Assembly: GCA_964016885.1 (NCBI GenBank)
Contig: OZ024742.1
Span: 57,660,001 to 57,724,000 of the forward strand
DNA length: 64,000 bases
Origin: Eledone cirrhosa
Taxonomy: Eukaryota
Direction of reading: 5' to 3'
Notes under the pieces: model-generated
The model's input: the letters and a program-made list of their open reading frames with translations, nothing else
Databases searched by the model: none
What the model was told of the DNA's origin: nothing
Program-made: the position numbers and the translations under genes
In this document: piece by piece, positions 1 through 53,400 of the stretch
How the letters are laid out: each line of letters starts with the position of its first letter
Position numbering within the stretch: the first letter of the stretch is position 1

Positions 1-112
1 GGGTTAGTGTTCCAAATGTGTTGCACTAAAAAATTTATCCGGTACTTACAATAGTAAGGGTAAATCCCGATGGAATAGCGGAGCCGATGCGAAGCGTGTC
101 TTACTCTATCAA

Positions 113-140
113 GATAGATAGATAGATAGATAGATAGATA
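113..140 (+). repeat. (GATA)n microsatellite at the 3' end of Tx1 copy 1
   Basis: Perfect GATA units seen directly. Confidence 0.95.
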
Positions 141-3100
141 TGTTTCTTTATTAGCTACAGGGGCACAAAAGAAGGGGACAAATACAAAGGAGGAAGTTTA
201 CATACAATAAAAACGTGTAAAATATTATCTCAAATGCAATTTAAAAATTAGTCGATTTTCCCCAATAGGGGGAGACAGTTCATATGGGTAACACATACCC
301 CGAAATAAAATGTGCAACCCTCATCTCCAGGAGTACGAAGAGTTTGTACTCCCTTCCTCTCCTCCCCTCTTTCCTCAACCTACAGGCTGATATAGAGAGA
401 AGGCCCATTCACTCGGGCCATTCTCGCCACTTTCACCCACCTTTCATAAAACTTGCTGGGGTACAGCACCTCTCTCTCCATCCTGATTCTTCTTCCAAAG
501 TGGTATTTGAAAAAAAGAATCAGTTGTGGGCCGGAGACAAAGGTGTCTGATCTCAGCCCTTTTAACCTCGTCCACCATACAACCTCTTTCGCCATAGCTA
601 TCACACAAAGGAAAACCGCCTCTCCTTCGTTTTTGAAGGAGGATGGCGGTTTGATCATGACAACGGACTCGGTGGTCAACCGGATTGGTCCCACCCACGA
701 CAATAGTCGTTCTACATAGCCCCACAGGTCGGTGACGCCCGTGAAGTGTATGAATGCGTGCGCGACGGTTTCTTCGTCTCGCACGCACCTCGGACAGATC
801 TTTTTTGCAGGGTCCCTGCCCGGGCGCCCATCTCTGTAGAGCTTGTCTCGAACTGGTAGAGCTCCTCGGTAGCACTGCCAGGCCAGGAACTTTTGGAAGT
901 TGTCCATCGGCCCCGGGCGGAAGGTCCTACCAAACAGACTGGCCAGTTCGTCTTCCTCTACGCCTAGAGTTTCACCGAGCGCGTCGTCGCACTTGCTGCG
1001 GATCAACCCTCTATAGAATGACGAAGTGGAGTCTCCACTGTTCGCCGGGTCCGCCTGCCAGAGGGCTGTGAGCGCCTGAGCACATTCGATGTGCCAGTCG
1101 CCCATTTTCCTCGGTCTTTGCTTGACCCAAGACTGCAGCTCGGTCAGCGAGACGAGTCGTGGAAAGGCTCGCCTCACGGTGAGGAATACGTAAAGATGCC
1201 GCAGCCTGAACGCGTGTTTGCGCATCGTCAGCCACGGCATCCCCAGCCCTCCGTTGGAAGGGTGTTGGAAGCAGATGGATCTTCTCACCAAAGGAGCCCG
1301 CCTCTTCCAAAGGAATTGGAAGAGCGCGCGCTCCATTTTGGTGAGAGTTTTGGCTGGACAAGGCACGACGGTCAAGCGGTAGTAGATGGCGGACGCTATA
1401 AAAGTGTTCGCCACCTCCGCTCGACCTTTCAAGGATAGTTTGCACTCGGCCCACTTCTGGGTGAGTGCAAACACCTTGGCCGTCACTTCGTTCAAGTTCT
1501 TCTCCACCTGGAGGTCCGGAACAAACCAGACCCCGAGCAGCTTTACCGGTCCTTCCGTCCAGCGTCCGACGACGCCATCGGAAGGCATCGGTTTTCCTCT
1601 CCACGATCCGAGTTGAAAACCGATGGGCTTGTCCCGGTTCAGCTTCGCTCCTGTGAACCTTTCGTATTCCTTCAGTAAGGTGCCGACTTCCTCGATTTGC
1701 GAGGCGCTCGACACCATTACTGTCACGTCGTCGGCGTAGGCCGACGCCGCTTTTCGCAGTCCCGGTTCCAGAGGGATGCCCTGCAATAGCTCCAACTTCC
1801 ACAGTAGTGGCTCGAGAGTCAGTACGTACAGAAGGGAGGAGAGAGGGCATCCCTGTCGAATGGATCGCGTGATATGGAACGGCTCCGAGAGGTAACCGTT
1901 CACCTTGACCCTTGATCAGATGTTGCTGTTGTGCATTGCAGCAATCCAGCCCCTGAACACGGGTCCGAAGCCTGTCGCCTCGAGCACCGCATCCAGGTAA
2001 CGATGGTCAACCCTATCGAAAGCCTTAGACTGCCAACACCTTGGCCAAAATCTGTAACTCTGTGTTTAGCAGAGTTATGAACCGAAAGTTGCCTATGTCA
2101 TCCCCCTTATTCTCGTCCTTCCTGACTAGTGTGACTACGCCCCCGGTCACAGAACTGGGAATTCTCCCGTTATGTTGCCAGTTGCAGTAGACCGCTTCCA
2201 GGAGACCGGAGAATAAGTCCGGCATTGCTACGTAAAATTCGTAGGGTAGACCGTCGAAACCTGGAGATTTGCGTTTGCTGCATTGGCTCAGCGCGTCCCC
2301 TATCTCAGCGGCTGAAATCGGCTTTTCGCAGAACTTCGCCTCGCTGTCCGAGAGTTGCGGTAGGCCGTCGAGGTATGGACCGAAATCAATAGCCCCTCCC
2401 GGCGCGCCGCCCTGCCCGAACAGTTGAGCAAAGTGCCGCTGAAAGGCCGCACACATCTGCTTCGGCTCACGTATCACGCGTCCGTTTTGGTCCTTCAAAG
2501 ATCGAATCGTAGACTTGTTGCCACTTTTTTCCTCCGTCACTCAGGCCCAGCTAACAGCTTTGGCTTCCTCGTTTCCCAGAGCACGTATTTTGCTTCTGAC
2601 AACGCAGCCCTCGTGCTTTGCGTCGAAGAACTGGTCCAAGGCCGTTCTCGTTGCTAGCACGCTGGCTACGTTGCCACTTCTAATTGCCTCTTCTACTTTA
2701 TCTACCAGTTCCTTCTCGGTTCTATTTCTATCTAACGCTAATTCTTTACTAAAAACTAACGAGTCTAATATAACTGCCCTCTTGAGAGAGTACCACCATC
2801 TGTTGTTGACAATGGCCCCTGTCAAGTGCTGTTTATCTAAAGTGCTAATCTGTCTACTGTAGGCTTTGCATGTCGGTAACGACAAGTTCAGCTTCCAGTA
2901 GCCGGGTTCTTGTCTATGGGTTCTATCAAGGTTGACCATGCAGGTCACTAGTTTGTAATCTGAATAGGCAACCATGAACATTTGTGGACAGCTTAACATG
3001 TCCCTATCCTTATTTCTAACTATAACACTATCTAGGTACGATCTAGATGTTCCGCTACGATTAGTCCACGTCCACAGTGGCACAGTCTGAAAATCTAGTC

Positions 3101-3987
3101 GATATCTATTGGCCAGGTCAAATCGGCCGATTAACTGTTTGAGGCTGTTACACCCCCCTTTATCGAGACATGCTCCCACATAGTCCCAACGTGCATCTAG
3201 GATTCCATTCCAGTCCCCCACTAAAAGCAAGGAGCGGGACGTTCCCAGAAAAGTCTCTAGACGTTTGAAGAAGTCTCGCCGCGGTGTCCCGGATGGGGCA
3301 TATGTGGCCACCAGCCTGAAGGCTCCACCTTCACTACCGTCAACGTCTAGGACCACCTCTCGACCCTCCGGGTCCAGATGTACCGTCTGTGTTACGAGGC
3401 CCAGGTGTTTCTGCAGCAAAACGGCAACCCCTCCCCCACCCCCGGCCGACAGAGAGATGCATAGATCTCAAAGTCATCGAAGATGAGGGCCAGCTGTCGC
3501 TCGCTGTGGATCCTGGACTCGAAAATGGCTACTACATCCATACTGTGCGACCTGAGGTCGTTTAAGAGTTTGCCCTGTTTCCAGGGCATCCCCAGGCCGC
3601 GTACATTCACACATCCAACTCTTATATTGGCCATGTTGATTCTGAAAAGTTAAAAGAAGAGGAGAAGAAAACACTCACCTCTTCGTCTCCCGGGGATCAG
3701 GCCGCACAGTTTCCATGGGGGTGTTAGAGGGGTTGTCTGGGTGGGTGGTGGTTTCCGGCGAGGTGGGGACGGAGATGTTTGGTAGGGTGGGGTGTCTGGG
3801 TGGGGGTGTCTGGTGTGAGGGTGGGGAAACTTTTTTAAAGGACGCGGTTAATGGGTTTAACACAAGGATTACCCACGTCCTTAGGAAAGTTTTCCTTTAA
3901 AGACTTATAGGTGTCCGTAGGGACCCTAATCATCTTTAAATTAGGTTTGTCTACACAGTTCGAAAAAGTTTTCCCTTCGGTTTTCTC
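141..3987 (-). mobile_element. Tx1/L1-clade non-LTR retrotransposon, copy 1 (5'-truncated in ORF1, ORF2 disrupted)
   Basis: ORF2 starts at 3634 (MANIRVGCVNVRGL). APE motifs LVGDWN and SYLD..SDYK; RT motifs KSPGFDG, IRQGCPLS, AYADD; C-terminal CPRC..ETVAHAF..; stop at 380-382; AATAAA at the 3' end. Frameshifts and a ~160-bp RT deletion near 2030 relative to copy 3. Bounded by GATA repeats. Confidence 0.93.
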
Positions 3988-3995
3988 GATAGATA

Positions 3996-4749
3996 TATTT
4001 CTTTATTAGCCACAGGGGCACAAAAGAAGGGGACAAATACAAAGGGGGAAGTTTACATACAATAAAAACGTGTAAAATGTTATCACAGATGGAATTTAAA
4101 AGTTAGTCGATTTTCCCCAATAGAGGGAGACAGTTTATATGGGTAACACAGACCCCCGAAAAAAATGTGCAACCCTCATCTCCAGGAGTACGAAGAGCTT
4201 GTACTCTTTTCCTCTCCTCCTCCTTTTCCTCAACCTACAGGCTGATATAGAGAGAAGGCCCATTCACTCGGGCCATTCTCGCCACTTTCACCCACCTTTC
4301 ATAAAACTTGCTGGGGTACAGCACCTCTCTCTCCATCCTGATTCTTCTTCCAAAGTGGTATTTGAAAAAAAGAATCAGTTGTTGGCCGGAGAGAAAGGTG
4401 TCTGACCTCAGCCCTTTCAACCTTGTCCACCATACAACCTCTTTCGCCATAGCTATCACACAAAGGAAAACCGCCTCTCCTTCGTTTTTGAAGGAGGGTG
4501 GCGGTTTGATCATGACAATGGACTCGGTGGTCAACTGGATTGGTCCCACCCGCGACAATAGTCGTTCTACATAGCCCCACAGGTCAGTGACGCCCGGGCA
4601 GTGTATGAATGCGTGCGCGACGGTTTCTTCGTCTCGCACGCACCTCGGACAGATCTTTTTTGCAGGGTCCCTGCCCGGGCGCCCATGTCTGTAGAGCTTG
4701 TCTCGAACTGGTAGAGCTCCTCGGTAGCACTGCCAGGCCAGGGACTTTT
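3996..4749 (-). mobile_element. Tx1/L1-clade LINE, copy 2 (short 5'-truncated 3' fragment with 17-bp TSD)
   Basis: Nearly identical to the 3' 750 bp of copy 1. GGTTTTCTCGATAGATA is duplicated at 3979-3995 and 4750-4766. Confidence 0.92.
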
Positions 4750-4758
4750 GGTTTTCTC

Positions 4759-4792
<34 letters not shown>

Positions 4793-4793
4793 C

Positions 4794-4854
<61 letters not shown>
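4759..4854 (+). repeat. (GATA)n microsatellite between Tx1 copies 2 and 3
   Basis: About 24 units, one GACA variant. Confidence 0.97.
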
Positions 4855-4855
<1 letters not shown>

Positions 4856-7800
4856 ATTTCTTTTTATTTGCCACGAGGGCACAAAAGAAAGGGACACATA
4901 CATGGGGGGGGGTACATAGAAATCGAGTAAAAAAATGTAATAACAAATAAAATTATAACAAAAAGGTCCTCAATAGGGAGGGATCTTTTTGGGGTCACAC
5001 ACACACACCCGAAAAAAAATGTGCGACCCTTCTCTACGTGAGCACAAATAGAGGGTTCTCCCTTCTTCCTTCATCCTTTTCCACCTACAGGCTGATAAAG
5101 AGAGAAGGCCCATTCACGCGGGCCATTCTCGCAACTTTCACCCACCTTTCATAAAACTGGCTGGGGTGGAGCACCTCTCTCTCCATCCTGATCCTGCTTC
5201 CGAAATGGTATCGGAAGAAAAGAACTAGTTGTTGGCCGGAAAGAAAGGTGTCCGACCTCAGCCCTTTTAGACGCGTCCACCATACAACCTCTTTTACCAT
5301 GGCTATTACACAGAGGAAGCCCGCCTCTCCTTCATTTTTAAAGGAGGGAGGCGGCTTGATCATTACAATGGACTCGGTGGTCAACCTAATTGGTCCCACC
5401 CGTGACAGCAGTTGTTCGACATAGCCCCACAGATCGGTAACGCCCGGGCAGTGTACCAATGCGTGCGCGACGGTTTCCTCGTCGCGCACGCATCTGGGAC
5501 AGATCTTTTTCGAGGGGTCCCTACCAGGGAGCCCGTGTCTGTAGAGCTTATCCCGAACGGGCAGAGCCCCTCGGTAGCACTGCCAGGCCAAGGGACTTCT
5601 GGAAGTTGTCCATAGGTCCCGGGCCGAAAGTCCTACCGAATAGGCTGGCCAGTTCGTCCTCCTCCATGCATAGGGTTTCTCCGAGGGCGTCGTCGCACCT
5701 GCTAACCACCAGCCCTCTATAGAATGACGAGGTGGAGTCTCCACCGATAGCCGGGTCCGCCTGCCAGAGAGCCGTGAGCGCCTGGGCACACTCGGTGTGC
5801 CAGTCGCCCAGTTTTCTCGGTCTTTGCTTCACCCAGGACTGCAGCTCGGTGAGCGAGACGAGCCTCGAGAAGGCTCGCCTCACAAACGGGGTCCAGACCG
5901 GTTGACCGGTGAGGAATTCCTGGAGGTGCCGTAGCCTCAATGCGTGTTTACGCATTTTTAGCCACGGCATCCCCACCCCTCCTTTCAAAGGGTGTTGACA
6001 GCAGATGGATCTCCTCACCAGAGGAGACCTCTTCTTCCAAAGGAAGTGAAAGAGAGCGCGCTCCATTTTGGTGAAGATCTCACCCGGGCAAGGCACGACA
6101 CTCAAGCGGTAATAGATGACGGACGCTATGTAAGCGTTCGCCACCTCCGCCCGACCTTTCAGAGATAGTTTGCACTCGGCCCATTTCAGGGTCAGTGCAA
6201 ACACCCTATTCGTCACCTCACCCCAGTTTTTCTCCACCTGGAGGTCCGGTCCGAACCAGACCCCAAGCAACTTCACTGGGCCCTCCGTCCACCGTCCGAC
6301 GATACCGTCGGACGACATCGGTTTGCCCCTCCACTCGCCGAGTTGCAAAGCGACTGACTTGTCCCGGTTCAGCTTAGCCCCTGTCAACCTTTCGTACTCC
6401 TCCAGTAAGGTGCCGATTGTCCCGATTTCCGCGTTAGTCGACACCATTACTGTTAGTCATCGGCGTAGGCCGACACCGCTTTGCGCAATCCCGGTTCCAA
6501 AGGGATGCCCTGCAACAACTCCAACTTCCGCAGTAGTGGCTCGAGAGCCAATACATACAGAAGGAAGGAGAGAGGGCACCCCTGTCGGATGGAGCAGGTG
6601 ATTTCGAACGCCTCCGAGAGGTAGCCGTTCACCTTGACTCTAGAGCAGATGCAGCTGCTGTGCATGGCAGTGATCCAGCCTCTGAAAACGGGTCTGAAAC
6701 AAGCCGTCGCTAGCACCGCATCCAGGTAACCATGGTCCACCATATCGAAAGCTTTAGACTGATCTAAATTTATCAGGGCCCCACCAAAGCCGGGTTTGTT
6801 CCCAACCCTCTCGATGATGTATCGCATGAGGTGGAGGTTGTCGTGGATGGACCTGGACGGGATAGCGCATGTCTGCGCATCTCCCACCAGGCCCCCCACG
6901 ACAAGCGCCAACCTCTTCGCTAACACCTTGGCCAAAATCTTTAACTCTGCATTTAGCAGATTTATGGGCCTAAAATTACTAATGTCATCCCCCTTGTTCT
7001 CGTCCTTCCTCACTAGCGAGACTACGCCCTTGGTCACAGAACAGGGAATTCTCCCATTCTGTTGCCAGTTGCAGTAGACCGCCTCGAGGAGATCGGGGAA
7101 CAAGTCCGGCATATTAATATATAGTTCGTAGGGCAGACCATCGAGGCCTGGAGATTTGCGTTTGCCGCATAGGCTTAGCACGTCCCCTATTTCAGCAGCT
7201 GAGATCGGTCCGTCGCAGGACCTCGCCTCCTCGACCGAAAGACGCGGCAGGCCGTCGAGGTATGGACCGAAATCCACAACCCCAACCGCCCCCCCGCCCC
7301 TCCCGAACAATCGGGCAAAGTGCCTTTGAAAGGCCTCGCACATTTGCTTAGGTTCAAGGATCACCCGTCCATCCTGGTCTCGCAAAGGCCGGATAGTGGA
7401 TCTAATCCCACTTTTGGCTTCTGTCACGCGGGCCCAGCTAACAGCTTTGGTCCCCTCGTTTCCCAGAGCACGTATTTTGCTTCGGACAACGCAGCCTTCG
7501 TGTTTCGCGTCGAAGAACTGGCTCAAGGCTGTTCTCGACGCTTGCACTCTGGCCACGTTGCCGCTTCTTATTGCCTCTTCAACATTAACTACCAACTCCC
7601 TTTCCTTCCTATTTCTATCTGAGGCTAACTCCTTACTAACTCCTATTGAAACTACTCTAATTTCTCTTTTCACAGAGCCCCACCACCTGCTGTTGACGAT
7701 GGCGCCCGTCAACCGCTCCTTAACTAAGGTTCTAATCCGGTCCCTGTAAGCTCTACTTGCCGGTAAGGACAAGTTGAGCTTCCAGTAACCGGGTCCCTGC

Positions 7801-9716
7801 CTATGCGTTCTATCAAGGTGGACTATGCAGGTCACTAACTTGTGGTCTGAATAGCCCACCATGAGCATTTCTGGACAACTTAAAAAGACCCTATCCTTAA
7901 TTCTAACTAAGAACCTATCTAGGTACGATCTAGATTGACCGCTATGGTTTGTCCAAGTCCAGGTTGGCACAGTCGGAAAATCTAGTCGATATCTATCGGC
8001 CAGGTCAAATCGGCCGATTAACCCTTGAGGTTGTTACACCCCCCTCTATCGGGACATGCCCCTACATAGTCCCAACGTGCATCTAGGATACCATTCCAGT
8101 CCCCCACTAAAAGCAAGGAGCGGGACGTCTCTAGAAAAGTCTCCAGACGATGGAAGAAGTCCGATCGCATTTCCCCAAAAGGGGCGTAAACGGCGACCAG
8201 CCTAAAAGCTTCGCCTTCACCACTACCAAGGTCCAGAACCACTAGTCGACCCTCCGGGTCCAAGTGTACCGTCTGTGTAGCGAGACCCAGATGTTTTTGC
8301 AGCAGAACGACAACCCCACCCCACCTCCGGGCTGACAGAGAGATGCGTGCATCTCAAAGTCATCAAAGGTGGGGGCTAGTTGTCACACGCTGCTGATCCG
8401 GGCCTCGCAAATAACCATCACATTTATACATCGTAACCTGAGGTCATTTAGAAGTTTAGCTTGCTTCCAAGGTGAGCCCAGGCCACACGCATTTAGACAA
8501 CCTACTCTTAACACAGCCATGTTGGTGGTAAAGAAAGAGGCACTTACCTCTCTGCATCCCAGGGTCCGGGCTGTTCAGTTTCCATAGGGGTGGTGGAGGG
8601 GTTGTTGGGTGGGGTGGTGGTTTGTGGTGGTGTGGGGGTATTAGTGTGTGGTGGGGTTGGGGTATTTGGAGTTGTGTGGGTGTCTGAGGAGGAGGGTGGG
8701 TAACCTTTTAAGAGGACGCGGTTAAACGGTTTGTTACAGGGAGGGCCCCACGTCCTCTTTATAAACGTTTTTTAAAGTTTGATAAAGGTTCATGAGGACC
8801 TTTATCATTTTGAGGTGTGGAGAGTCATCCACTGTCTTAAAATTTGGCCCTTCGGTTTGCACCAAAGGGTTACTGTTTATTATATTGAGCAGTTTTTTGT
8901 TTTGTTTGTTGATGTAAGTGTACTGTAATGTTTTTTTCTGTGATGCTGTTAGTGTTGTGAAATGGGGAGGGGTGCTTTGTGTTGTGTTTGTTTCTTCTGT
9001 GTTTGTTTGGTTTCTGTTAGTGGTATGTTTCCTTTTTTTCCTTTTTACTGGTCAGAACGGCTCTCCTTCATCTTCGTTATGCTCCGATGTAAGGAGGTTT
9101 TCGTCCGTGTTCGGGTGTAGGGGGATATTTTGTGGTAGTGTTGTGTTGATGTGTGTATTTTTGATTGTTTTCTGTGTGGTGTGGGTGTGACTGTGATTTG
9201 TTTCGTGGTTTTTTGTTTTTGTTGTTGTTGTGGTGGTGGTGATGAAGGTGTTGTTGGTTTTTGTTATCGTTGTGGTGGTGGTGATGGTGGTGTATTTTGT
9301 TGTTTTCGTGGTGGTGGTGTTGGTTGTTTTTGTTGTTGTTGTGGTGTTTGTAGCAGTGGTTTTTTTGTTGTTAGTAGAGGGCAGGCAGTCCTCAGGTGAC
9401 CTCTGCCAGCGCAGTGGTAACATGAGGGCCTCCTGCCTTCCACCGTAATATTAATGAAAGTTCGACCATCCAGTAGTACTCGGTCGGGTATTCCGGCAAT
9501 ACTCTCTGGTGTCATCTGTATGAGAACCTCCAGACTTTTCCCCCTTAACAGTCCACTGGTGGACTCACCTGCTGATACTAGAATGTCCTTTTCAGGACGG
9601 ACCAGATGTCTACTTCTGGCGTTGAGCTCCACATTCTTAATCTGTGTTCTTCTTCCTTTATATGTGGGGAAGAAGGTGTATTGTGGTGACACTATAGGTG
9701 CCACCGAGCATTTTCA
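4855..9716 (-). mobile_element. Tx1/L1-clade LINE, copy 3 (diverged subfamily; partial ORF1 plus frameshifted ORF2)
   Basis: ORF1 fragment 9264-9704 with CCHC knuckle CYHCAGRGHLRTAC and a T/K/P-rich tail. ORF2 starts at ATG 8520 (MAVLRVGCLN), with RT motifs SKAFD, RQGCPLS, AYADD and CPRC..HALVHC; stop at 5085-5087. (GATA)n on both sides. Confidence 0.93.
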
Positions 9717-9830
9717 ATAGATAGATAGATAGATAGACGGACTGACGGACGGACAGACAGATAGATTTAGGGAAATAAAAGATAGATGGATGGAGGGATA
9801 GATGGAGCGACGGGTGGACAGATGGACAAG
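9717..9830 (+). repeat. (GATA)n decaying into GACG/GATG variants at the 5' flank of Tx1 copy 3
   Basis: atagatagatagatagatagacggactgacggacggacagacagatagat... Confidence 0.85.
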
Positions 9831-17770: not shown

Positions 17771-19115
17771 ATCATCATCATCAACGTTTAACGTCCGTGT
17801 TCCACGCTTGCATGGGTTTGGACGGGGGTTTTCCCACTTGAGGCAAGAGTGATTGTCTCGCTCGCATAGGACTGTCTGGCAGGTTTTCTACAGTTGGATG
17901 CCCTTCCTAACACCAACCACATTTACAGTGTGGGTCTGGGAGGTTTTTACCGTGTTGCCTACACGGCCACATTACAGCGTGGACTGTGTTTTTTTTGTCG
18001 TGACACCTACACGATCTCATTTGTTTCGGCCTGGATGGTGTGGCACCAACATAACTTTACATAGAAGGTGGCGGTGTGGATGGGGTGGTGGTGGTGGGAC
18101 GGGGGTGTATTTTGTTAGAGATGCCTACTGACTGTAGTAGGTTTTACTATGTATTTAGGTAAGGCGGGTCTTCTCTATTACTGAGTACCGCCAAAGGTCT
18201 CGGTCCAGTGACATTGTCTTGGAGAGGTGTAAGTGTGTGTGAGGTCGGAGTTTATCAGCTCGTCCCAGGTTTTTCTAGGTCTGCCTATTCCGTGGCTACC
18301 GTCTATCTTTATTGCCCTGCACTTTGTTATACAGCTATCGACTTTCATGCGCATCACGTGTCCATACCAACGTAGCCTTCTCTCGAGTAAACAACATCTG
18401 ATCCCTCTTATTTCTAATTTTTTCCTTAGTTCGTTTATGCTTTGCTGTTCACGTATATTACTATTACACATCCAGCGGAGCATGCAAGCTTCGTTCTTAT
18501 CTAGTCTGCATATATCCTCTGCACACAATGCCCAGGTCTCACTGCCATGCAACATTGCTGTTCGTATGCAGGCATCATACAACCTGCCTTTCATTTTTAG
18601 GGAGAACCCTTTAGCAGCTAATAGTGGTATAAGCTCTCTGAACTTTTTCTATCCAGTTCTGACTCTAGCTACTGTACTTTCAGAGCACCCTCCCCCACTG
18701 CTGATTTTGTCACCCAGGTAACGGAAGCTGTCCACTATTTCTATAGAGCCCTCTGCGCAGTTGAAAGAGCTAGTATTTTGTGGGCACTTGCTGCTACTTA
18801 TTGCACCAGAGCACCGGCCACATGTGAAATCTATGTTCTTAGTTAGCTTACCTGTGATCCCACTACATCTTTTATGCACCCATACTTTGCATTTCTGACA
18901 CAAAATGGAGTTTCTACCTACGCCTTTCCTACACACTGAGCATGGCCACTTCCCGGAAGGGACCGCCGCCTTATTTTCTTTCCTACAAACTAGAACTTTG
19001 GTCTTAGCCAGATTAATTTTAAGGCCTTTTGATTCTAGGCCGTGCTTCCATGTTTGGAATTTCTTCTCTAGCTCGGCCATTGATTCAGCTATGAGTGTTA
19101 GGTCGTCTGTGTATA
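17771..19115 (-). mobile_element. RTE-clade LINE with embedded PHD finger, 5'-truncated
   Basis: LYTDDL (RT); PHD-type CSVC..CQKC..HKRC..CGRC; FRYLGD; AMLHGSETW; RRLRWYGHV; GRPRKTW; (GAT)n tail. Near-identical to 53893-55118. Confidence 0.9.
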
Positions 19116-19814
19116 GTCTTATGTATGTATATATATATATATGTGAAGCAAAAATGAAAGGTTCTATGTGCAAGAAATATTAGCAAAATCAACCCCCCTC
19201 AATTCACAGCGAACTGTCTTACACACACATATACATGAGTATGTACGCCATGGAGCCATTGCTATAACCGATAGAAATCTCCCTCAAACAATGTTGGTAT
19301 ACCTGATAGAAATAGAAAACTAATCTCAAACACCATCCTACTCTCTTCGAGACAATGGTGGGTGAAAGTTAGTGTCAAAATCTAAATATACTTTCTTGAA
19401 TTACAGAAATGACTAAGTAAATGCTTCATAATAGTTCATTCATGAGCCAATGCTAACTTTGTTTTATATTTTATTTTATTTATGGTTTTCAAAATAGCCT
19501 TCAGGCGTTTTGTTTTGAATTTCGGAGGTGCAAAAAAAAAAGATTAAAAAATGTCCAAAATCTAAATGCTTTGCATTAAACAAACAATAATGAAAATTCT
19601 GCTATAATACCTACTTCAGTTGAAATAGAATAATTCTATTTCACTGGTCAAATATTTTGTAATGTACCAAAATATATTGTTACTTCCATAAAAATAACCG
19701 GGCATTGCCGGGTACCTCTGCTTTTGTTCCATACATGTAAATTTAATTATTATAGGCACATGGTCACATTTTATAAAGGCTAAATTGTGTGTGCGTGTAC
19801 ATATATATATATAC

Positions 19815-33640: not shown

Positions 33641-36600
33641 CAAAGAGATATTTAATTTGTTGATTATTCAACAAATTTATATTTATAACAGATTCGAAGC
33701 ACTCTACAGATTTTCTGGAGTATAATATCAATGATATATATATACTTTACATAGCATTAAAGTCTTTAGAATAGTAGGCTGTGTGCCATATATAGCAGTA
33801 AATGTAGTTAATGTTAGTTGAAATTTGAACTTTATGTACATGTGTGATATTCTGTATGAATGCTGTATTTTGTTACAGGCCCATGCATAATTATTTTGTT
33901 GTCATTCTTGTGAGTTTATAATACATGCATCGAATGGATTTAAGTCAAGAAAATTTTCATTGAATGGAAACGAGGCAATTCAGCAACAAATATTATTGAC
34001 AATTGAAGGAGAGTGGAATTAACAACATTTCAGCAAATTCAACCATTTATCATTGGGTGAAATAATTCAAAGATGACAGTAAATCATAACTTATTGATGC
34101 TCCTTGTTCTAGCCGTCCTTTCATAACCACTATTCATGCCAACATTCAACTCATTCAAAGTATTATTGATGCAGAACCAAAACAATCATTGTGTTACATT
34201 GCACATGTTACTGGAATAAACAAAGAAAATTTGTTTTCGCTTCATCAGAAGTGGTGGATAAATTGTTGCACTGATTTCGACAATTGCCGAAACAACGGTT
34301 CCAGAAAGAGTTAAATGCTTTGCATAAGCACTTTAAGGATGTTATTGCATTCAATGGAGATTATGTTTTGCACGATAAATAAATTTTAATTTCAATGTTT
34401 TACATTTTCATTTAAAGGGTTATTCTAAGGAATTTATTGCCATGCCAAGTATATATATATATATATATATATAAGTCCCAGGTTCAATCGAGGGTAGAGT
34501 GTAAACAACAAATTTGATATAGAAATGGCTTCTACAGGACTAGAACTGTTTCATTCATATGTATGGCTGAAGCTATAAATATAGCAGTAGCTATAAAAGA
34601 AAAAACAATTCCATCAGAAAAGATGAAGATAAAAAGAGAAGAAAATGAAGAATCCAACCAACCTTAGCATCATAAAGAGAATCAAGATGTATAAGAGGAA
34701 TTTCCTGTACCAAAATATTCTTTGAGAGGCAAACATAGAGTTTTGACATGCTGTTTTGAACCTGTGGAAACTCAGATTTGAATACTGTAGATGTTGTGGA
34801 TGTGGAATTAGTTTCATATGAGATCAACAGATAACAGCTTCTTTCAGTCTGAAATAAACAGATAAATAAATTCTTAGACAGACAGGCAGGCAGATAGACA
34901 GACAGATGGATAGACAGGCAGACAGACAAATAGAAAGAGGGAAAGGGAGACAGACAGACGAATATCATCATCATCATTTTACGTCCGCTTTTCCCTGCTT
35001 GCAAGGGTGGGACGGGAACTGATTCTGGCTTGATTTCTACAGCTGGATGCCCTTCCTAACACCAACCTCATTTACAGTGGGTGCTTTTTTTCCGTGGCGC
35101 CTACACGTCCACTTTACAGTGTGGGCTGGGTGCTTTTTTGCCATGGCACCTCCACGACCACTTTGCAGTGGAATGATAGGGACTCCAGATGATGATGATC
35201 ATCATCATCATCACCATCATTTCGTAGCTCTTGATTAAACATAAATATTCTTATATATAAAGTATTGCTTATTTTAACATTCACTTCGGTTAGCGCCCAT
35301 TATATCATAAACACTCGTCACTTATATAAACGTTCATATATTTGCATCATTATATAAGGTTTATATTTCCGTCACTAATTTTCTCCTTTTTCATTTTCAT
35401 AACATTTTAGTTTATCATATATGCAGTTTATATATATCTTCTTTTTTTAATGTATCATGGATTACGTTACTGATTACATAAGACAGTGTAATGCAGTCTT
35501 CGTTCAATTTCTGTTTATATTGTCAATTACGATTTTATTTGATGTATCATATCTACATGTATATATACTTGCGTATAATATCAATATGCACACTACACAT
35601 GCTAGCAGAAAACCACCCAAAGGGTAATTTTCCTGCTAGTATATAATATATATATATATATGGTTTCCGTTACCTGGGTGACCAAATTAGCAGTGGAGGT
35701 GGGTGCTCTGAAGGTACTATAGCCAGAGAGAGAATGGGATGGAGAAAGGCCAGGGAGTTACTAGTGCTGCTAACTACAAAAGGTTTTTTCCTCAAAATGG
35801 AAGGCAGATTGTATTATGTGTGTATACGGACAGCAATGTTGCATGGCAGTGAGACCTGGGTGCTGTGTGCCGAGGTCCTACAAAGATTGGAAAGAAATGA
35901 AGCTTCGATGGATTTGTACTAGTAATATACATGAACAGCAAAGCATATATGAACTGAGAGAGAAACGGGGGGGGGGGATAAGAGGAGATTGCATTTGTAT
36001 GAACATGTGATGCATATGAAGGATGACAGCTGTATAAATAAGTGCAAGGCGCTCATAGTTGATGGAAGCAGTGGTGTAGGAAGACCTAGGAAGACTTTGC
36101 ATGATGTGATAAAAGTTGACCTTGCACAATTGAAGGCGTTGACACAGGATCGAGATCTCTGGCGTGATGCAATGATACAGAAGACTCTCCTTCCCATGTG
36201 CACAGGTTGAAGCATACATCTTGTATGCACTATCTTCTCATCCCTTTTCTACGTCCCTCCTTTTGCACCTCCCACACAGTAAAGTGGTTGTGTAGGTTGT
36301 CACAAAAAGCACCCAGTCCACACAGACCTGGCTTATCTCACAATGGGATATCTCGTCTAACCTATGCTAGCTTGGAAAAATGGACGTTAAATGGTGGTGA
36401 CGATGATGACGATAAATATATATATATATATATCATCGTTTTACCTTCCATTCTTCCACGCCAGCATGGGTTAGACGAGTTGTCCTATTATGGACAATGC
36501 TAGGTCAGGTGACCATGCTTTGCTTATACAGAACTGATTTTGGCTTGGTTTCTAGATGGATGCCCTTCATAACGCCAGTCTCATTTACAGTGAGTACTGG

Positions 36601-39600
36601 GTGCTTCTTGTCGTGATACCTCCATGACCACTTTACAGTGGACTGGGTGCTTATTGTCGTGGCACCTCACAACCACTTTACAGTGTGGGCTGGATCCTTT
36701 TCGTCGTCATACTTACACAACAAGATACATCTGTTCGAATCCTACGTCAGAAGCATCGACCCTGACTTCATCACAGTCACGGAAACATGGGCACATTCCT
36801 TACTCTGTGATGGGGTTTTCAGCATTACTGGGTACAACCTTTTCCGCAAGGACCGCATTAACCGCCGTGGTGGTGGTGTGATGGTCTACGTTCGTTCAAA
36901 CTTTTCGGTAATTCCTTGCGTTGATTTGAACGAATCACAGGAAGAAGTTTTTTTCTGTGACATACGTATGACCATGTCAACACTTCTGCTTGGTGTTGTT
37001 TATCGCCCCCCAAACTACCATCAGGACACACAGCTTTGCGATATCCTCAGAGTTGCTGCCAAGAAAACAGCCACTTATGTGTTTATTGCAGGTGACTTCA
37101 ATCATCCTGAGATCGATTGGGAAACCTTTCGTTGGCCACAAGGTGCAAACGATTTCCTTGAACTAGTGCTGGACTCAAACTGGTCACAAGTAGTCACCTC
37201 TCCAACAAGAGGTGACAACACTTTGGACCTGATCTTTACCACTACTCCTGAAGTGGTTATCAGTTGTACTACTGAGGAACCTCTAGGCGACTCTGATTAT
37301 GCTATGATCATTGCCAATCTGGCACTTGAGGGCAGCAACAAAAACTAGAGCCATCTTCAATCTGCTTGCTTTGATTGGAAGAGGGCGGATTGTAACTTGT
37401 ACTGCACTGAGCTGCAGCGCCCAAACTGGCATGAGATGTATAACTCTGGAGATGTGAACTCTATACTCCAGAGCATCCTGGACTCAATATGGATAGCGTG
37501 TGCAGCATCAGTGCCACGGAAGCAGAAAAATAACCACCCCAAAAGTGCAATCTGGGAAACTTCAGCGGTCCGACTTGCCAGGAAAGAACGTCGGAACGCT
37601 GAACGGGAATATAAACTGCATAAATCAGATGCCAACAGAAAAAAGCGGAATAAATCTTCTAACCATCTCAAGCAAGTGACAAAGAAGGCAGTGCTTGAAT
37701 TTGAACAGTGCATCGCAACCAATCCTGACAGTAAGGTGTTCTGGAAATATGTTCATTCAAAGCAGAGACCTCACTCTCCAGTTGGTCCTCTTCGCAATCC
37801 CCACACAAGCCAGATCACTGATGATCCCAAGGAATGCGCAGAACTCATTGCTGAGTGCTATGCAAGTATTTTTACTGTTGAAAACCAGAATGTACCATCT
37901 CCAACATCAAATTCCATAACAATTATGGAATTTACACCTGCAATGTTGCGACGTCACCTTAAGAATAAGCGCAACTATGCCTCCCCTGGTCTTGATGGTG
38001 TGACATACCTGCTTCTCAAACGTGGCGGGTATTTCCTTTTGCGCCAGCTTTCTTTCTTCTTTCAATACTGTCTCAACAATGGTGCTACTCCGGAGCAGTG
38101 GAAAACTGCCAGTGTCATTCCCCTGTTCAAAAAGGGCAACCGCATGTCACCTGTCAACTATCATCCAGTCAGTCTTACTAGCTGTATGGCCAAACTGATG
38201 GAATCCTGTGTCAGAGAAACACTTTGGAACTTCTGGAGCTCTCACAGCCTCATCCGGCCCTCACAGTTTGGATTTATCCCTAACTCCAGCTGCTGTGATC
38301 AGCTTATCGAGTTCCTTGAGGACATCACCCGGATCACTGACAGCGGCTCATGGGTGGATGTTGTTTACCTTGACTTTGCTAAGGCTTTTAATTCTGTGCC
38401 ACACAAAAGGCTTATGGCAAAACTCTCTGCAATGGGTGTGAGGGATGATCTTTTCAACTGGTTGAAATCCTTCATTATCAGCCGAAAAGAAGTAGTCACG
38501 GTTCTGGGTCAGCATTCTTCACCATATGAGATGTCATCTGGTGTACCACAGGGATCTGTTCTTGGTCCTCTTTTGTTTGTGGCATATGTTAATGACATAG
38601 ATGCCAACTTACAGAATGCCACGGTACTAAAATATGCAGATGACGTCAAGCTGTACCTTGAAATCAAAAGGACTGATCCTGAAATTTACAACTCTTTCCT
38701 ACAATCAGACCTGGACACAATGCAGCAATGGATCACAGACTGGCAACTGAAGCTGGCTGTGGACAAGTGTACCACCATGCATTTTGGAAGGAAAAATCCA
38801 GCGTCCACATACTCCCTCCACAACACTGATATCAAAAAGTCCTCTTGTGAACGTGACCTGGGCATTACTGTCAGCAACGATTTGCGCTGGACAAAGCATG
38901 TCTCTAAGATTGTCAAGAAGGCCGAGGGTGTCTTGGCATCACTCAGCAAGACCTTTGTTAGCCGCTCTCCAGCCATCTATTTAAAACTGTATACAGCTAT
39001 GGTGCGACCACACTTGGAATTCACATCATCAGTCTGGAACCCCTATCTTGCTCAGAACATTGACCTCCTGGAAACTGTTCAGAGGCGTGCAACCAAGCGC
39101 ATACCCTCCATCAGACACCTACCATACTCTGAACGCCTTGCTTCCCTGGGCATGGATTCATTGAAGCTCCGACGTCTGGCAATGGACTTGGTGAATACCC
39201 ACAAAGTTTTTAACCATCTCGCCAATTGCAACCCTGAGCGCCTCTTTGATCTCCATGTGTCTAACACACGTGGACATGCCTACAAGATCAGAAAACAGCA
39301 CCGCTCCCATGACTTTCGTAGACATTTTTTCACGCTCAGAGTTGCTAAAGTATGGAACAAACTGCCTGCGTCAGTTGTTAACTGCCGAGACACTGCATCC
39401 TTTAAGACACTCATGCTTCCCGAAATACGCCAAAACTACACCTGATGTACCCCTCCCATACACATGCACACGTGTATATCATGACTTGTGCACTGTTCAT
39501 TTTACTGATGTTTGTGCATTGCCCTATGTACTGTACATGCACTTTTTTTATGAGTTGTGGTGCACCTGGGCACTGTACACAATATTTCATTATTGTTATT

Positions 39601-42600
39601 GTTATTATATCATGACTCATACACTGTTCATTTTCTTGACACTTTATTATTCTATGTACTATACATGCACCTTTGATGAGTTGTAGTGCACCTGAGCACT
39701 GTACACAATAATTTCATTATTATTATAACCCCTATACATTGGAAGGGGGTGGGGCAGGGCATACTGTATATATGCTTCAGCTTTGGCTTATACCCATGGG
39801 AAATCGGGTCTTCTGTATTACTGCATAACACCAGAGATCTTGGTCCTGTATCATCACCTTTGAGAGATGCAATTAGGCATGGTCAGCTTTTATCACCTCA
39901 TCCCAAGTCATCCTGGGTCTCCCCACTCCAAGGCTTCCATCAACTTAGAGCACTCTGCACCTTTTTAGGCAGCTGTCATCCTTCATATGCATCACATGTC
40001 CATACCAACATAATCTCCTCTCTTGCACACATTTGATTCCTCTTATGCCTAGTTTCTCTTTCAGTTCGCTTATGATTTGCTGTTCGTGTACATTACTATT
40101 ACACATCTATCGGAGCATGCAAGCTTCAATTCTTTCCAACCTACACAAGTCTTCTACACACAGCATCCATGTCTCACTACCATGCAACATTGCTGTTTGT
40201 ATGCACACATCATACAGTCTGCCTTTCATTTTGAGGGAAAAGCCTTTTCGTAGCTAGCAGTGGTAGTAGTTCCCTGACCTTCTTCCATCCTGTTTTTACT
40301 CTAACTACTGTACTTCAGAACACCCATCTCTACTGCTAATTTGGTCACCTAGGTAGCAGAGCTGTCTACTGTTTCTACAGAGCCCTTCCAGAATTTGGTA
40401 GTGCTTGTTTCCTGCAGTCATTTGCTGCTTACTGTCCTGGTGCAACTGCTACATGTAAAGCCTACATTCTTAGCTATCATCCTCATCCTCATCGTTTAAC
40501 GTCTATCTTCCACGCTAGCATGGGTTAGACGGGAATTGTCCCATTTGAGGCAAGATTGGTCAGATGACCATGTCTCGCTCATATAGGACTATCTGGCAAG
40601 TTTTCTATGGCTGCATGCCCTTCCTAACACCAACCACATTTACAGTATGGACTGGGAGCTTTTTATCATGTTACCTACACGACCACGTTACAGCGTGGAC
40701 TGTGTTTTTTTTATTTTTATCGTAACCTACACGACCTCATTAGTTTGGACTGGATGTTGTGGTATCAACATAATTTTATAGAGAAAGGGTGGTGTTGGCG
40801 GGAGTGGAAGGATGGAGTAGGGGTTATGGGTTGGGGTGTATGTTTGGTTTGGAGGTGCCTACTGACTGTAGGTTAACTTTGCACGTAGGGAAGGCGGGTC
40901 TTCTGTATTACTGAATGGCACCAAAGATCTCGATCCAGTGACATTGTCTTAGAGAGGTGCAAGTGTGCAAGGTCGGAATTTATCAAGTCGTCCCTGGTTT
41001 TTCTGGGTCTACTACCCCGTAACTTCCATCAATTTTGATCGCCCTGCAATTTTTTATACAGCTGTCGTCTTTCATGCGCATCACATGACCATACCAATGT
41101 AGTCTTCTCTCAAGTAAACAGCATCTGATCCCCGTTATTCCTAATTTCTCACTTAGTTCATTTATGTTTTGCCGTTCACGTATATTACTATTACACATCC
41201 AACAGAGCATGCATGCTTCGTTCCTTTCCAGTCTGCGCAGGTCCTCTGCACACAATACCCATGTCTCACTGCCATGTAGCATTGCTGTTCGTATAGAGAC
41301 ATCATACAATCTGCCTTTCATTTTTAGCGAGAAACCTTTTGTGGCCAACAGCGGTATAAACTCTCTGAACTTTTTCCATCCCATGCTAACTCTGGCTACT
41401 GTACTTTCAGAGCACCCTCCACCACTGCTGATTTTGTCACCCAGGTAACAGAAAGTGTCCACTATTTCCATATAACCATCTGGGCAGTAGAAGGAGCTAG
41501 TATCCTGTGGGCAACTGCTACTTATTGCACCTGAGCATATATATATATATAGAGAGAGAGAGAGAGTGAGAGAGTGAAGAGTTAAATACATTCACCATCA
41601 TCAGCATCATATAATGTCTTTCTTCTAATTAGCAAGGTTTGCAAGGGTCATCAAATAAAAAGTCAATATTTAATCAGAGCTACTAACCTCTTCTAACTGC
41701 AACTTATTTTCGTTCCATGTAACATTCAGCAACTGAGAATACAACACCCTCACCACCCCACACCTACCCTAGCTGCTGCTGTTGGTACTCATTTTTAGCT
41801 AAATTGACAGGAGCAATGTGAAGTGAAGGACACAATGCAAAGCTCAACCTGAGAATGAAACCCTTATGATCACAAAACCAACACCCAACTATCCTCTTCA
41901 TAATCATCATTATCCATGAGTTGGACGGATCTTTTACAGCACTGCATGCCTCCATTTATCGCATTCTTTCATCACCTCCTCTGTGAGCTTCAGCAAGCTA
42001 AGATAAGCTCTCATGACCTGTCCAGGTCCTCCTCCACTGCAGCTTCCTTCCACTGAGATTTTGTGACACTTCTTCACCCAACAATCATCATCCATGTGCA
42101 TCACATGTCTATACCAGCAGTTATTTCTCTTGCACATTACATCTGATTCCTCTTATACCCAGTTTACATCTCAGTTTATCTATGCTTTGTCATTCACGCA
42201 CATTAACATTACGCATACATCAAAGCATGCTTGCTACATTTCTCTCCCGCCTTCACATATCATCTGCATTCACTGTCCATGTTTCTCTACCATGCAGCAT
42301 ACCGTATCACACTACCAGATGATAGGTTTTTAAAGAAAAAGGTAATAGGAAAAAAACAGTTTAGAATAGTACTGACCTGCATGGTATGATACCATTTTGA
42401 GGCATCACCTTGGAAAGAAACAACAGTTTGGTGATGGTGGATGACATCAGACAGAGATTCTGTGATTTTATCTTTAACTGTTGAATTAGAAACAAAGAAT
42501 AAATAACTAAGGGAGATAACTTACTAGTGCGTGTGTTAAACAAGGTTCGAGGGTAGGTGGCCTAGAGGTTAGGGTATTGTTGATCTTACAGCCAAATATT

Positions 42601-50400: not shown

Positions 50401-53400
50401 TATTCTCACCTAATAGAACCATCCAGAATAAGAACTCCATCAACACCATTGCCTGTTATTGTACCCTAAAGTTATAAAAGAAACAGTAAATATATATATA
50501 GGCCCAGGACATCTGTTTGCAATTGCTCCATTACAAATAAACATTTTGTTAGCACTTTGAGACAGCTTTGCACACTTATACGTTCGAACCATATCTCATT
50601 GAGTCTTGAAGGTCAGCAAATTCAATATGGATGTTATGTGTTAGGTAAACTCCAACTAAGTCGGTAACCTGTGCATAGTCACTAGACCCATAGTAATATC
50701 AAAATTATTAGTTCTATCTCTACATGTCCAGTTCAGTGAGCTACTACCACTGCTAGCTGCAAAAGTCTTTTCCCTCAAAATAAAAGGCAGACTGTATGAT
50801 GCGTGCATATGAACAGCAATGTTACATGGTAGTGAGACCTGGACGCTGTATGTAGAAGACTTGCGTAGATTAGAAAGAAACGAAGCTTGTATGTTCCGAT
50901 GGATGTGTAATAGTAATATACGCAAACGGCAAAGCATAAACGAATTGAGAGAGAGACTGAGCATAAGAGGAATCAAATGCTGTGTGCAGGAGAGGAAGTT
51001 GCTTTTGTATGGACATGTGATGCGTATGAAGGATGACAGCTGCATAAAAAGGTGCAGAGCACTAGAAGTTGATGGAAGCCTTGGAGCAGGGAGACCCAAG
51101 AAGACCTGGGATGAGGTGATAAAAGCTGACCTTGCCCAATTGCACCTCTCAAAGGCGATGACACAGGACTGAGACCTCTGGCATTACGCAGTAATACAGA
51201 AGACCCGATTTCCCACAGGTACAAGCCGAAGCTGAAACGTATAGACAATATGTCCCCACGCCCTACAACTGCAAAGTGGTCGTGGAGGTGTCACGACAAA
51301 AAAGCACCCAGTCCACACTGTAAAGTGGTCATGCAGGTGCCATGGTAAGAAAGCACCCAGTACTCACTGTAAATGAGGTTGGTGTTAGGAAGGGTTTCCA
51401 GCTGTGGAAATCAAGCCAAAACCAGTTCCCGTATGAGCAAGACATGGTCACCCGACCTGGCATTGCCCACAACAGTCTAACCCATGCCAGCATGGAGGAA
51501 TGGACGTAAAACAATGATGATGATGATGATGACTGAACGTCTAGCAGCTACAATTGTGTCAGCCTCATCCTTAATTAAGCTGGAGTTCCACATGGCAAAT
51601 TTGAGACGAACAGGTGAAATACATGAATAATAGTCATCAATATCAAACTGAATAAACTTAGATGCTTTTTTATCCTCTATCTTAGTAACCCAGTCAATAA
51701 CCACATCTGTGTTGCCCCAAAGTTTAATTGATAACCTACTTTTTAATTGAGTTAATATTCTATTTTAAATATTCTTACTAATACAACTTATATGTCATTT
51801 AGATGGGCATATGAGAAGGGTTAGATTCAAAGTTTTTTTATTGACCTTTAAATTAAAGGTTGGACATCTAGGTTCAAATGGTTTGGTTTGGTGAGCCAGG
51901 CCTAATTTATTTACTATCGCTTGAACTATGTATATTGATATCATTAATGGAATTTTTTATTTTTTTTTAATTTCTTCTGTAGTTCCTTAAGTATACCATT
52001 TTTATAATTGTTCATGTCCATGGAGTAAATATTGCTAGTTTTGTCGGCATTGACGAGTATTCCTTCAGTATTTCTAAGTCTATTCATGATCGATTGGAGA
52101 ATCTTCTAGAATTTACTAGTGTTGGCGATTTTTTAATTTAATTTTACTGACCATATCCATTTGATCAGTTTCAAATGCTTTCAAATGTGGATTATGTGGT
52201 GGATTTTTATAGGATTTAAATCCAAAGTTATTTTTCTGTGAATCCTTGTTATTGGTTTAAATATTAATAAATATATATATACGTATGCAGTAGATGTACA
52301 GGGAAATTAGACAGTAGAAGTCGCATTGATAGACACATTTTTCAAATGCAGGCAGGTGCTATAGAAGTGGTGGATAGCTTCCGGTACCTAGGAGATCAGA
52401 TTAGCATGGGAGGGGGTGTTCCGAGGCCATAGTATCTAGAATAAGGACAGGTTGGAAGAAGTTTAGGGAACTGCTTCCTCTGCTGACGAAGAAGGGTTTC
52501 TCCCTGCTTACGAAAGGCCGGTTATAAAAACCTGTGTGAGGAGCGCGATGCTGCATGGTAGTGAGACATGGGCAGCAACTGCAGAGGATATACGACAGCT
52601 GGAGAGAAATGAGGCAAGCATGCTCCGTTGGATGTGCAATGTCAATGTGTGTGAACGACCCAGCATAAATATGTTGAGAGAGAAACTGTGTCTGAGAGGG
52701 ATAGAATGTAGTGTGCGAGAGAGGAGACTGAAGTGGTATGGACATGTGATGCGCATGGAGGATGACCGATGGGTGAAGAAGTGCCAGGAAATGCCAGTTG
52801 AAGGAAGACGTGGTAGAGGTAGACCACGAAAAACATGGGCGGAGGTGGTGAGAATAGACCTCAGATCGCTGAAGCTCACGGTGGAGATGACGAAGGACCG
52901 TGACAAGTGGAGAGATGCTGTGCTGAATAAGACCCGTCCCACCCTTGAAAACAGGGAAAAGCGGACGTAAAATGATGATGATAATACTAGCTGACGTACC
53001 CAGCTTTACCCGGATGATAAGAGAAGACAGGTAGAAGAGAAAATGACTGTATTGGATGTTTATCTGGTTTACAGTAGGAGGCAAGACTGTGGTGTGTGTT
53101 ACAAAAAAATAAACAGTAAAAAAATCTTCCAGATACACCAGATTCTTTGTTTTACCGTTCATGCATAGTATATGAAGATTTGTAGGTGTTTCCACTCGTA
53201 AACAACCTACATATAACTCTCCATGGGTAAAAAGCGATTCTCTTGTATTCAATTTTACAACTTTGAAACTCTGAGCCTGGGCTTTATGTACGGTCATAGC
53301 AAAACTGGCTCTAACAGAGAAATGATGTCTTGAGAATTTGAATGGCAGCTCGGTAGAGAAAGGGATAAGAGGAATCTTGAGAATAAATGCATTTTCTCCT

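What the first reader, a model, noticed from the sequence alone, without database searches (positions are those of the whole stretch)
101..9830. Tandem array of Tx1 LINEs that appear to target (GATA)n microsatellites
Seen: three same-orientation copies from two subfamilies have GATA/TATC repeats at both 3' and 5' junctions (113-140, 3988-3995, 4759-4854, 9717+). None has a poly(A) tail; each 3' end reads AATAAA(AA)GAAA-N(1-2) directly into TATC. Known: Tx1-clade elements are often sequence-specific (Kibi in (TC)n, Koshi in (TTC)n, Keno in U2, Mutsu in 5S). I do not recall a described (GATA)n-specific family. Inference: a GATA-specific APE endonuclease repeatedly reuses one locus and builds a head-to-tail array.
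Basis: partly seen in the sequence, partly recalled or inferred. Interest (0 to 1): 0.8.

Follow-up and report, generated by a model that had tools for sequence, protein, structure and literature searches.

The report
Active octopod LINEs targeting GATA repeats
This is a stack of copies of a jumping gene from a host that is likely an octopus relative; thousands of copies across the genome sit in GATA repeats, one sister line sits in GACA repeats instead, and the choice between the two is likely set by the RNA's tail rather than by a changed cutting enzyme.

Summary
The window has three minus-strand L1-group LINE pieces separated by GATA repeats; two more copies continue the array leftwards. 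Of 6,480 exact A-type 3' ends, 5,827 run into TATC two bases later. The repeat is the target, not only a tail: 35 of 40 very young copies also have it at the 5' junction, none in reverse; copy B carries a 17-bp target duplication; and one empty allele shows an unbroken GATA tract. Young copies are 99.9% alike, three have both frames intact, and one insertion is present/absent within one sample, so the family is recently active. A sister lineage uses (GACA)n: T-form tails give 563 TATC to 0 TGTC, C-form tails 7 to 128. The class follows one base 8 nt from the 3' end, not the endonuclease hairpin, which favours priming by an RNA repeat tail (inferred). Tx1-clade membership is likely but untested by tree. 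No paper on a GATA target was found; Repbase and Dfam could not be searched.

The parts
1..112 (-). 5' end of copy D, a full-length 5.68-kb copy of a third subfamily; it continues to G000:C3:57654437, followed by (TATC)17 and a 450-bp piece E
   Evidence: ORF1 of 577 aa open, ORF2 frameshifted
113..140 (+). (GATA)7 between the 3' end of A and the 5' end of D
141..3987 (-). Copy A: 5'-truncated LINE (end of ORF1, ORF2 with frameshifts and an internal deletion, 3' UTR)
3979..3995 (-). 17-bp target-site duplication of B, 3' copy: two TATC units plus the first 9 bases of A
3996..4749 (-). Copy B: 754-bp 3' piece of a very young subfamily, inserted after A
   Evidence: 39 other copies with about one difference in 450 bp; 99.3% to E
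4750..4766 (-). 17-bp target-site duplication of B, 5' copy
4759..4854 (+). (GATA)24 between the 3' end of C and B
4855..9716 (-). Copy C: lacks the first ~770 bp; ORF1 remnant with CCHC knuckle, ORF2 (APE endonuclease, RT) broken by frameshifts
9717..9806 (+). GATA tract fading into GACG/GACA/GATG; 5' flank of C and end of the array

Best explanation
These are L1-group (likely Tx1-clade) LINEs that insert in one fixed orientation into (TATC)n/(GATA)n microsatellites, likely by an endonuclease nick in the repeat followed by priming on a short repeat tail of their own RNA. Shown: orientation-specific insertion, target duplications of about 11-27 bp that begin with the first repeat unit, one empty allele, no poly(A), recent activity, and a sister lineage in (TGTC)n/(GACA)n. 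Inferred: the poly(A) signal lies only 6-8 nt from the element's end, so the transcript would be cut inside the flanking repeat and carry a few UAUC (or UGUC) units; these would pair with the nicked GATA (or GACA) strand and start reverse transcription there, skipping the poly(A). The endonuclease would accept both repeats and the RNA tail would pick between them. Each insertion leaves a tract on both sides, so later copies land next to earlier ones and build head-to-tail arrays; some arrays also grow by tandem duplication. My odds: targeted insertion 0.93; RNA end, not an endonuclease change, decides GATA versus GACA 0.55.
For: 3' ends: 5,827 of 6,480 A-type tails are followed by NN-TATC, 3 by NN-TGTCTGTC. 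5' ends: 8-nt repeat on the sense strand in 103 of 147 copies, antisense in 1; truncated copies with no neighbour upstream 34 of 70, antisense 0; background 0.9%. Young set: 40 of 40 begin TATCT at the 3' side, 35 of 40 have the repeat at the 5' side, 30 of the 35 truncated ones. Target duplications holding non-repeat bases: 7 of 147 against 0-1 in 48 of 60 shuffles, maximum 5 (examples). Empty allele of L320: a contig of run X1 continues from one flank through (GATA)5 into the far flank, while a contig of X3, same sample, spans the filled junction. No A-run at 0 of 168 ends. Class switch: 563:0 and 7:128; the 7 are near the 4 expected from later T>C mutation. The base 8 nt from the end is the best of 5,640 columns (TGTC class 32 of 32 C; TATC class 18 T, 1 A). 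Bodies are mosaic, and copies such as L137 and L235 have the other class's body but the flank that matches this base. No class difference in the hairpin region, residues 190-198, other than residue 196, where all 25 intact GACA copies and 10 of 16 GATA copies share Q. One young copy in a (CA)n tract still starts TATCT (L331). Precedent for RNA-target annealing: SART1Bm and R1Bm (PMC7265360, passages).
Against: Endonuclease residue 31 does track class (Cys in 19 of 20 GACA copies, 3 of 18 GATA copies of the C-like group); it lies just before the strand that ends in the catalytic Glu, which by knowledge of the fold is away from the DNA face, but I did not measure that in the model. A copy's endonuclease gene need not be the one that cut for it if chimeras form during insertion, so mosaic copies do not exclude enzyme control. 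Swapping endonucleases between TRAS1 and SART1 moved the insertion site (PMC1919474, passage). At L320 the duplication accounts for all 3' repeat units, so no net RNA-derived repeat is seen, and the empty allele has one unit more than the filled 5' side. The stem between the -8 region and the first repeat is only 4-5 bp and not significant in folding (z -0.2 to -2.8). 42 of 102 truncated mixed-age copies lack the 5' repeat (later deletions probably account for some, not tested). The sample is the best 40 of 750-3,000 candidates per query, so it leans to copies like those in the window. Only one empty site was tested. No RNA data on the tail.
Confidence: 0.7

Rival explanations
1. Endonuclease-only specificity: the enzyme reads GATA, and the GACA lineage arose by an enzyme change; the -8 base only hitch-hikes as a marker of the donor RNA.
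For: Enzyme swaps set the target in TRAS1/SART1 (PMC1919474, passage). Residue 31 tracks class at p=1e-6. Acting in cis, the enzyme comes from the RNA on which reverse transcription starts, and the -8 base marks that RNA.
Against: No fixed difference between classes anywhere in the endonuclease; hairpin shared; Cys31 occurs in 3 GATA-class copies, and the A family uses GATA with Ser31. Association is perfect only at the 3' end and weaker in the enzyme gene.
Confidence: 0.22
2. TATC is only a 3' tail made by the element (as for microsatellite-tailed LINEs); 5' repeats come from neighbours' tails or from a repeat leader on the RNA.
For: 40 of 40 young copies start TATCT even off target. Full-length copies have the 5' repeat more often (43 of 45) than truncated ones (60 of 102), and L136 has extra repeat between its duplication and its start, so a leader may exist.
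Against: 34 of 70 truncated copies without an upstream neighbour have the repeat, against 0.9% background; duplications include the repeat units plus unique bases; the empty allele holds the tract.
Confidence: 0.03
3. The array in the window arose by DNA-level tandem duplication or mis-assembly, not by separate insertions.
For: Three pairs among 40 young copies share breakpoints and lie 0.7-6.5 kb apart (L304/L305, L313/L314, L335 twice). A and B share a 9-base junction motif.
Against: The five copies come from at least three subfamilies (76-99% pairwise) with different breakpoints; the shared motif is B's target duplication; B has 39 near-identical relatives on other contigs. No read or contig spanning the whole array was listed, so the assembly itself was not confirmed.
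Confidence: 0.03
4. Random insertion with passive survival in repeat-rich, low-constraint DNA.
For: Proposed for Drosophila Waldo-A/B near CA repeats (PMC3812793, passage).
Against: Strict orientation (103 sense, 1 antisense), fixed register two bases after the tail, and the same pattern in copies 99.9% alike.
Confidence: 0.02

Closest known systems
Kibi ((TC)n), Koshi ((TTC)n) and crocodilian Tx1 families in (TTCC)n/(TTTC)n (PMC4494074, passages and section 15; PMC3812793, passages)
   Same: APE-type LINE of the L1 group inserted specifically in a pyrimidine-rich microsatellite on the sense strand.
   Different: Target unit is TATC (and TGTC in one lineage); host is likely an octopod, not a vertebrate; thousands of copies. 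Relationship by tree not tested.
SART1Bm, TRAS1, R1Bm (R1 clade) (PMC7265360, PMC1919474, passages)
   Same: Insertion in a tandem repeat; short target-like RNA sequence can anneal to the nicked strand; R1Bm needs downstream target sequence for accurate priming.
   Different: Different clade; SART1 copies keep a poly(A) tail; there the endonuclease was shown to set the site.
Waldo (ACAY), Mino (AC), Dong (TAA), Togen (TG) (PMC3812793, PMC4640811, passages)
   Same: Microsatellite-specific non-LTR elements.
   Different: Other clades and other repeat units; none listed for GATA or GACA.
Human L1
   Same: Best solved-structure match for both RT (E 1.5e-42) and predicted endonuclease fold (TM 0.78); primes by RNA-DNA pairing at the nick (established knowledge).
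   Different: L1 has a Transposase_22 ORF1, a poly(A) tail and a loose TTTT/AA target; here ORF1 has a CCHC knuckle and there is no poly(A).

Membership tests
APE-type non-LTR retrotransposon, L1 group | Two ORFs; ORF2 with N-terminal APE endonuclease, RT and C-terminal zinc region | tested here: met
   Natural copy L339: 5,844 bp, ORF1 638 aa, ORF2 1,145 aa with PF03372, PF00078, PF13966; endonuclease model matches L1 EN first.
APE-type non-LTR retrotransposon, L1 group | RT closer to L1 than to other LINE clades | tested here: inconclusive
   L1 ORF2p E 1e-42 against R2 1e-21, but the structure bank offered only those two clades; other LINEs in the window scored far lower.
APE-type non-LTR retrotransposon, L1 group | Marks of target-primed reverse transcription: variable 5' truncation, target duplication | tested here: met
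   35 of 40 young copies truncated at many points; duplications of 11-27 bp where unique bases allow reading.
Tx1 clade | RT tree position with Tx1L, Kibi, Koshi, Keno | not testable with these tools
   No named Tx1 protein was returned; Repbase and Dfam are not on hand.
Tx1 clade | Type I ORF1 (RRM-like part plus CCHC knuckle), not Transposase_22 | tested here: met
   CCHC motif visible, Pfam zf-CCHC below cut-off (E 0.012-0.24); Atlas look-alikes carry zf-CCHC and RRM-type families. PMC5203782 (passages) calls such ORF1s in non-mammalian animals consistent with Tx1; not unique to it.
Tx1 clade | Target-sequence preference (Kojima's working rule: target in more than 20% of flanks) | tested here: met
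   70% of 147 and 88% of 40 at the 5' flank; 90% of 6,480 at the 3' flank; rule from PMC4494074, passage.
Kibi / Koshi families | Insertion in (TC)n or (TTC)n | tested here: not met
   Target is TATC or TGTC; only a few copies abut (TC)n.
Tx1 clade | Endonuclease itself cleaves the target sequence specifically | not testable with these tools
   Needs an in vitro nicking assay.

The most novel reading that the evidence does not exclude
A recently active LINE family whose choice of microsatellite target is written in its own RNA 3' end: a switch from GATA to GACA happened with no change in the endonuclease's recognition hairpin, tied to a compensating base 8 nt from the end. The donor's flanking repeat would be inherited as a guide, which would make this a natural case of RNA-tail retargeting in an APE-type retrotransposon.
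Probability: 0.4. Interest if true: 0.8.

Novelty: new variant of a known kind. Interest (0 to 1): 0.58.

Why it matters
How APE-type LINEs pick microsatellite targets is described as not well understood (PMC3812793, passage). This family gives a natural pair: two lineages about 90% alike with different targets, hundreds to thousands of copies, and intact young copies, so enzyme versus RNA control of targeting can be tested directly by swaps. It also means that GATA microsatellite loci in this host are sites of recent large insertions, which bears on marker use and on genome size. If the tail sets the target, it bears on retrotransposon-based gene insertion. Microsatellite targeting by Tx1-type LINEs is itself known, and a Repbase entry may already note this target (my guess: one chance in three).

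Tried and rejected
B as a duplicate of A with an internal deletion: rejected, the shared junction is B's target duplication. A fixed short master starting at A's 5' end: rejected, 28 of the 29 other loci run on upstream of that point. Trees of endonuclease and tail: too little resolution inside the C family to count switches; the codon table was out of frame past the reference's frameshifts and was redone. First flank counts mis-set junctions or missed ends and were replaced. Reads laid on the window showed no empty allele and no piece spanning the array. No RNA holder listed. Metagenome scan gave only 21-37% relatives; their flanks were not examined. Single-sequence search of the endonuclease against solved structures found nothing. 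RNA folding of the 3' end: no strong support for a stem. Earlier findings of the scan: none. Literature: nine searches returned no paper that, in the listings or passages I read, names a GATA- or GACA-specific LINE; Kojima and Fujiwara 2004 is not held, and the figure and supplements of PMC4494074, which list Tx1 targets, could not be seen, so absence from print is not shown.
Full report
Observation. The sequence shows three minus-strand LINE pieces, A (141-3987), B (3996-4749) and C (4855-9716), with GATA tracts at 113-140, 3988-3995, 4759-4854 and 9717-9737. They encode APE endonuclease, RT and zinc motifs. Each 3' end runs from AATAAA through 6-8 bases into TATC with no poly(A). The neighbouring stretch shows a full-length copy D starting at 112 and a 450-bp piece E beyond it, so the array has five copies.

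Host and family. The window lies in a 3.0-Gb assembly. The nearest named protein is from Argonauta hians at 66%, then a cuttlefish at 52% in the RT, so the host is likely an octopod (inference). L1-Tx1 is listed among LINEs expanded in coleoids (PMC8967140, passages), with no word on targets in those passages. Natural copies L336, L338 and L339, 3 of 18 stretches fetched for this, are 5,844-5,845 bp with ORF1 of 638 aa and ORF2 of 1,145 aa. The endonuclease model (pLDDT 87) matches human L1 endonuclease first. No named Tx1 sequence was available, so Tx1 membership rests on ORF1 type and target preference, not on a tree.

3' junctions genome-wide. An exact 21-base A-type tail occurs 6,480 times; 5,827 are followed by two bases and TATC, 3 by two bases and TGTCTGTC. 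None of 168 catalogued ends has an A-run.

5' junctions. From four DNA searches (best 40 of 1,059-2,958 candidates each) and fetched extensions I catalogued 168 ends, including neighbours and the window's own copies; 21 whose 5' end ran off the stretch were dropped. Of 147, 103 have an 8-base TATC/TGTC-type repeat on the sense strand within 25 bases upstream, 1 on the antisense strand; full-length 43 of 45, truncated 60 of 102, truncated with no neighbour upstream 34 of 70; background 0.9%. B proved to belong to a very young subfamily. In those 40 copies (best 40 of 753 candidates; median 99.9% to L339), all 40 begin TATCT downstream and 35 have the repeat upstream; the five misses are L323, L326, L331, L333 (which has a 21-bp duplication with the tract just beyond the window) and L334. 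Three pairs share breakpoints, so the 40 are about 37 events.

The repeat is the target. Where unique bases lie near the tract, a duplication can be read: 7 of 147 against 0-1 in 48 of 60 shuffles, beginning at the first repeat unit and 12-27 bp long. B's is 17 bp and includes the first 9 bases of A, so B came after A. At L320, a contig from run X1 (depth 8.7) leaves the flank exactly at the insertion point and reads on through GATA units into the far flank; a contig from X3, the same sample, spans the filled junction (depth 3.9). This is an empty allele with (GATA)5 and an 11-bp duplication, one unit longer than the filled 5' side. It is one locus, at low depth, but it shows a pre-existing tract and a polymorphic insertion.

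Arrays. 46 of 147 copies sit within 150 bases behind another copy, often of another subfamily. Each insertion leaves a tract on both sides, which explains this (inference). Tandem duplication adds to it.

A second target. In the C family, tails ending AATAAA-T-AGAAAT-N are followed by TATCTATC 563 times and TGTCTGTC 0 times; tails with C at that place give 7 and 128. About 4 and 2 discordant cases are expected from later mutation (rates). The 5' flank agrees: 22 of 22 full-length C-form copies have TGTC and 15 of 15 T-form have TATC. Among 53 copies at 89% or more to one reference (3 with mixed or tied flanks dropped), this base is the best of 5,640 columns. Bodies are mosaics, yet the flank follows the terminal base. 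In the endonuclease no residue is fixed between classes; the hairpin region is shared; residue 31 tracks class imperfectly (19 of 20 against 3 of 18) and residue 46 more weakly. The T-to-C change keeps the base complementary to the first repeat unit, but the possible stem is short and folding gives no strong support.

Mechanism. Shown: oriented insertion, duplication, empty site, class linkage to the 3' end. From established knowledge: APE LINEs nick the bottom strand and prime reverse transcription there, and cleavage for poly(A) falls some 10-30 bases after AAUAAA (recalled). Inferred: the transcript ends inside the donor's flanking repeat, and those units pair with the nicked strand, as AGG/GGUU sequences do for SART1Bm and downstream target does for R1Bm (PMC7265360, passages). 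A copy in a (CA)n tract that still starts TATCT fits an RNA-borne start. Against: enzyme swaps set the target in TRAS1/SART1 (PMC1919474, passages), chimeric copies blur which enzyme cut, and L320 shows no net added repeat. I put RNA control of the switch at 0.55.

Comparison and novelty. Microsatellite-specific LINEs are known for TC, TTC, TTCC/TTTC, AC, ACAY, TAA and TG units (PMC4494074 passages and section 15; PMC3812793 passages; PMC4640811 passages). I also read passages of PMC3747384, PMC10088271, PMC5786205, PMC5203782 and PMC13295347. None of what I read names GATA or GACA. The 2004 survey, the Tx1 target figure and supplements of PMC4494074, Repbase and Dfam were not seen and may hold such a family. 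The name Mutsu for the 5S family is recalled. Verdict: a real, recently active family that works like Kibi and Koshi, with a target not found in my searches and a natural target switch; a new variant of a known kind, interest 0.58.

Noticed in passing
window 3970-3987 and L092-L120: A 9-bp perfect hairpin near the end of ORF1 in the A family; its loop is inverted in 7 of 30 loci, and copies A and L095 are both truncated at this loop.
   Followed up: partly
window 3650-3685, 8521-8552; L339 ORF1-ORF2 spacer: A splice-donor-like motif (GTGAGT in the A family, GTAAGT in C) sits at the end of ORF1; in the A family it is followed within about 35 bases by a pyrimidine tract and CAG just before the ORF2 start. 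Role unknown.
   Followed up: no
L136, L330, L336, L338: Some full-length copies carry extra repeat-like bases between the target duplication and the element's first base, as if the RNA had a repeat leader from its donor site.
   Followed up: partly
L074-L089, L233-L239, L068, L160: At least five different 5' heads are joined to related ORF2 bodies, and C-family bodies are strongly mosaic.
   Followed up: partly
L331 (G000:C1:283661850-283669849): A young copy inserted in a (CA)n tract on both sides, still starting TATCT at its 3' junction.
   Followed up: partly
window 36617-39445: Another LINE on the + strand with endonuclease (243 aa) and RT (698 aa) frames separated by one stop; only about 25% like the array's ORF2. 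Many fragments of a further LINE type lie at 18178-19179, 40983-41591, 52467-54723 and 62745-63859.
   Followed up: no
window 34876-34959: A degenerate GACA/GATA tract with no copy of this family beside it.
   Followed up: partly
P0009, P0019, P0025: Unnamed 1,126-1,155-aa relatives at 41-43% identity form clusters of 385-732 members on long contigs; their insertion targets could not be read.
   Followed up: no
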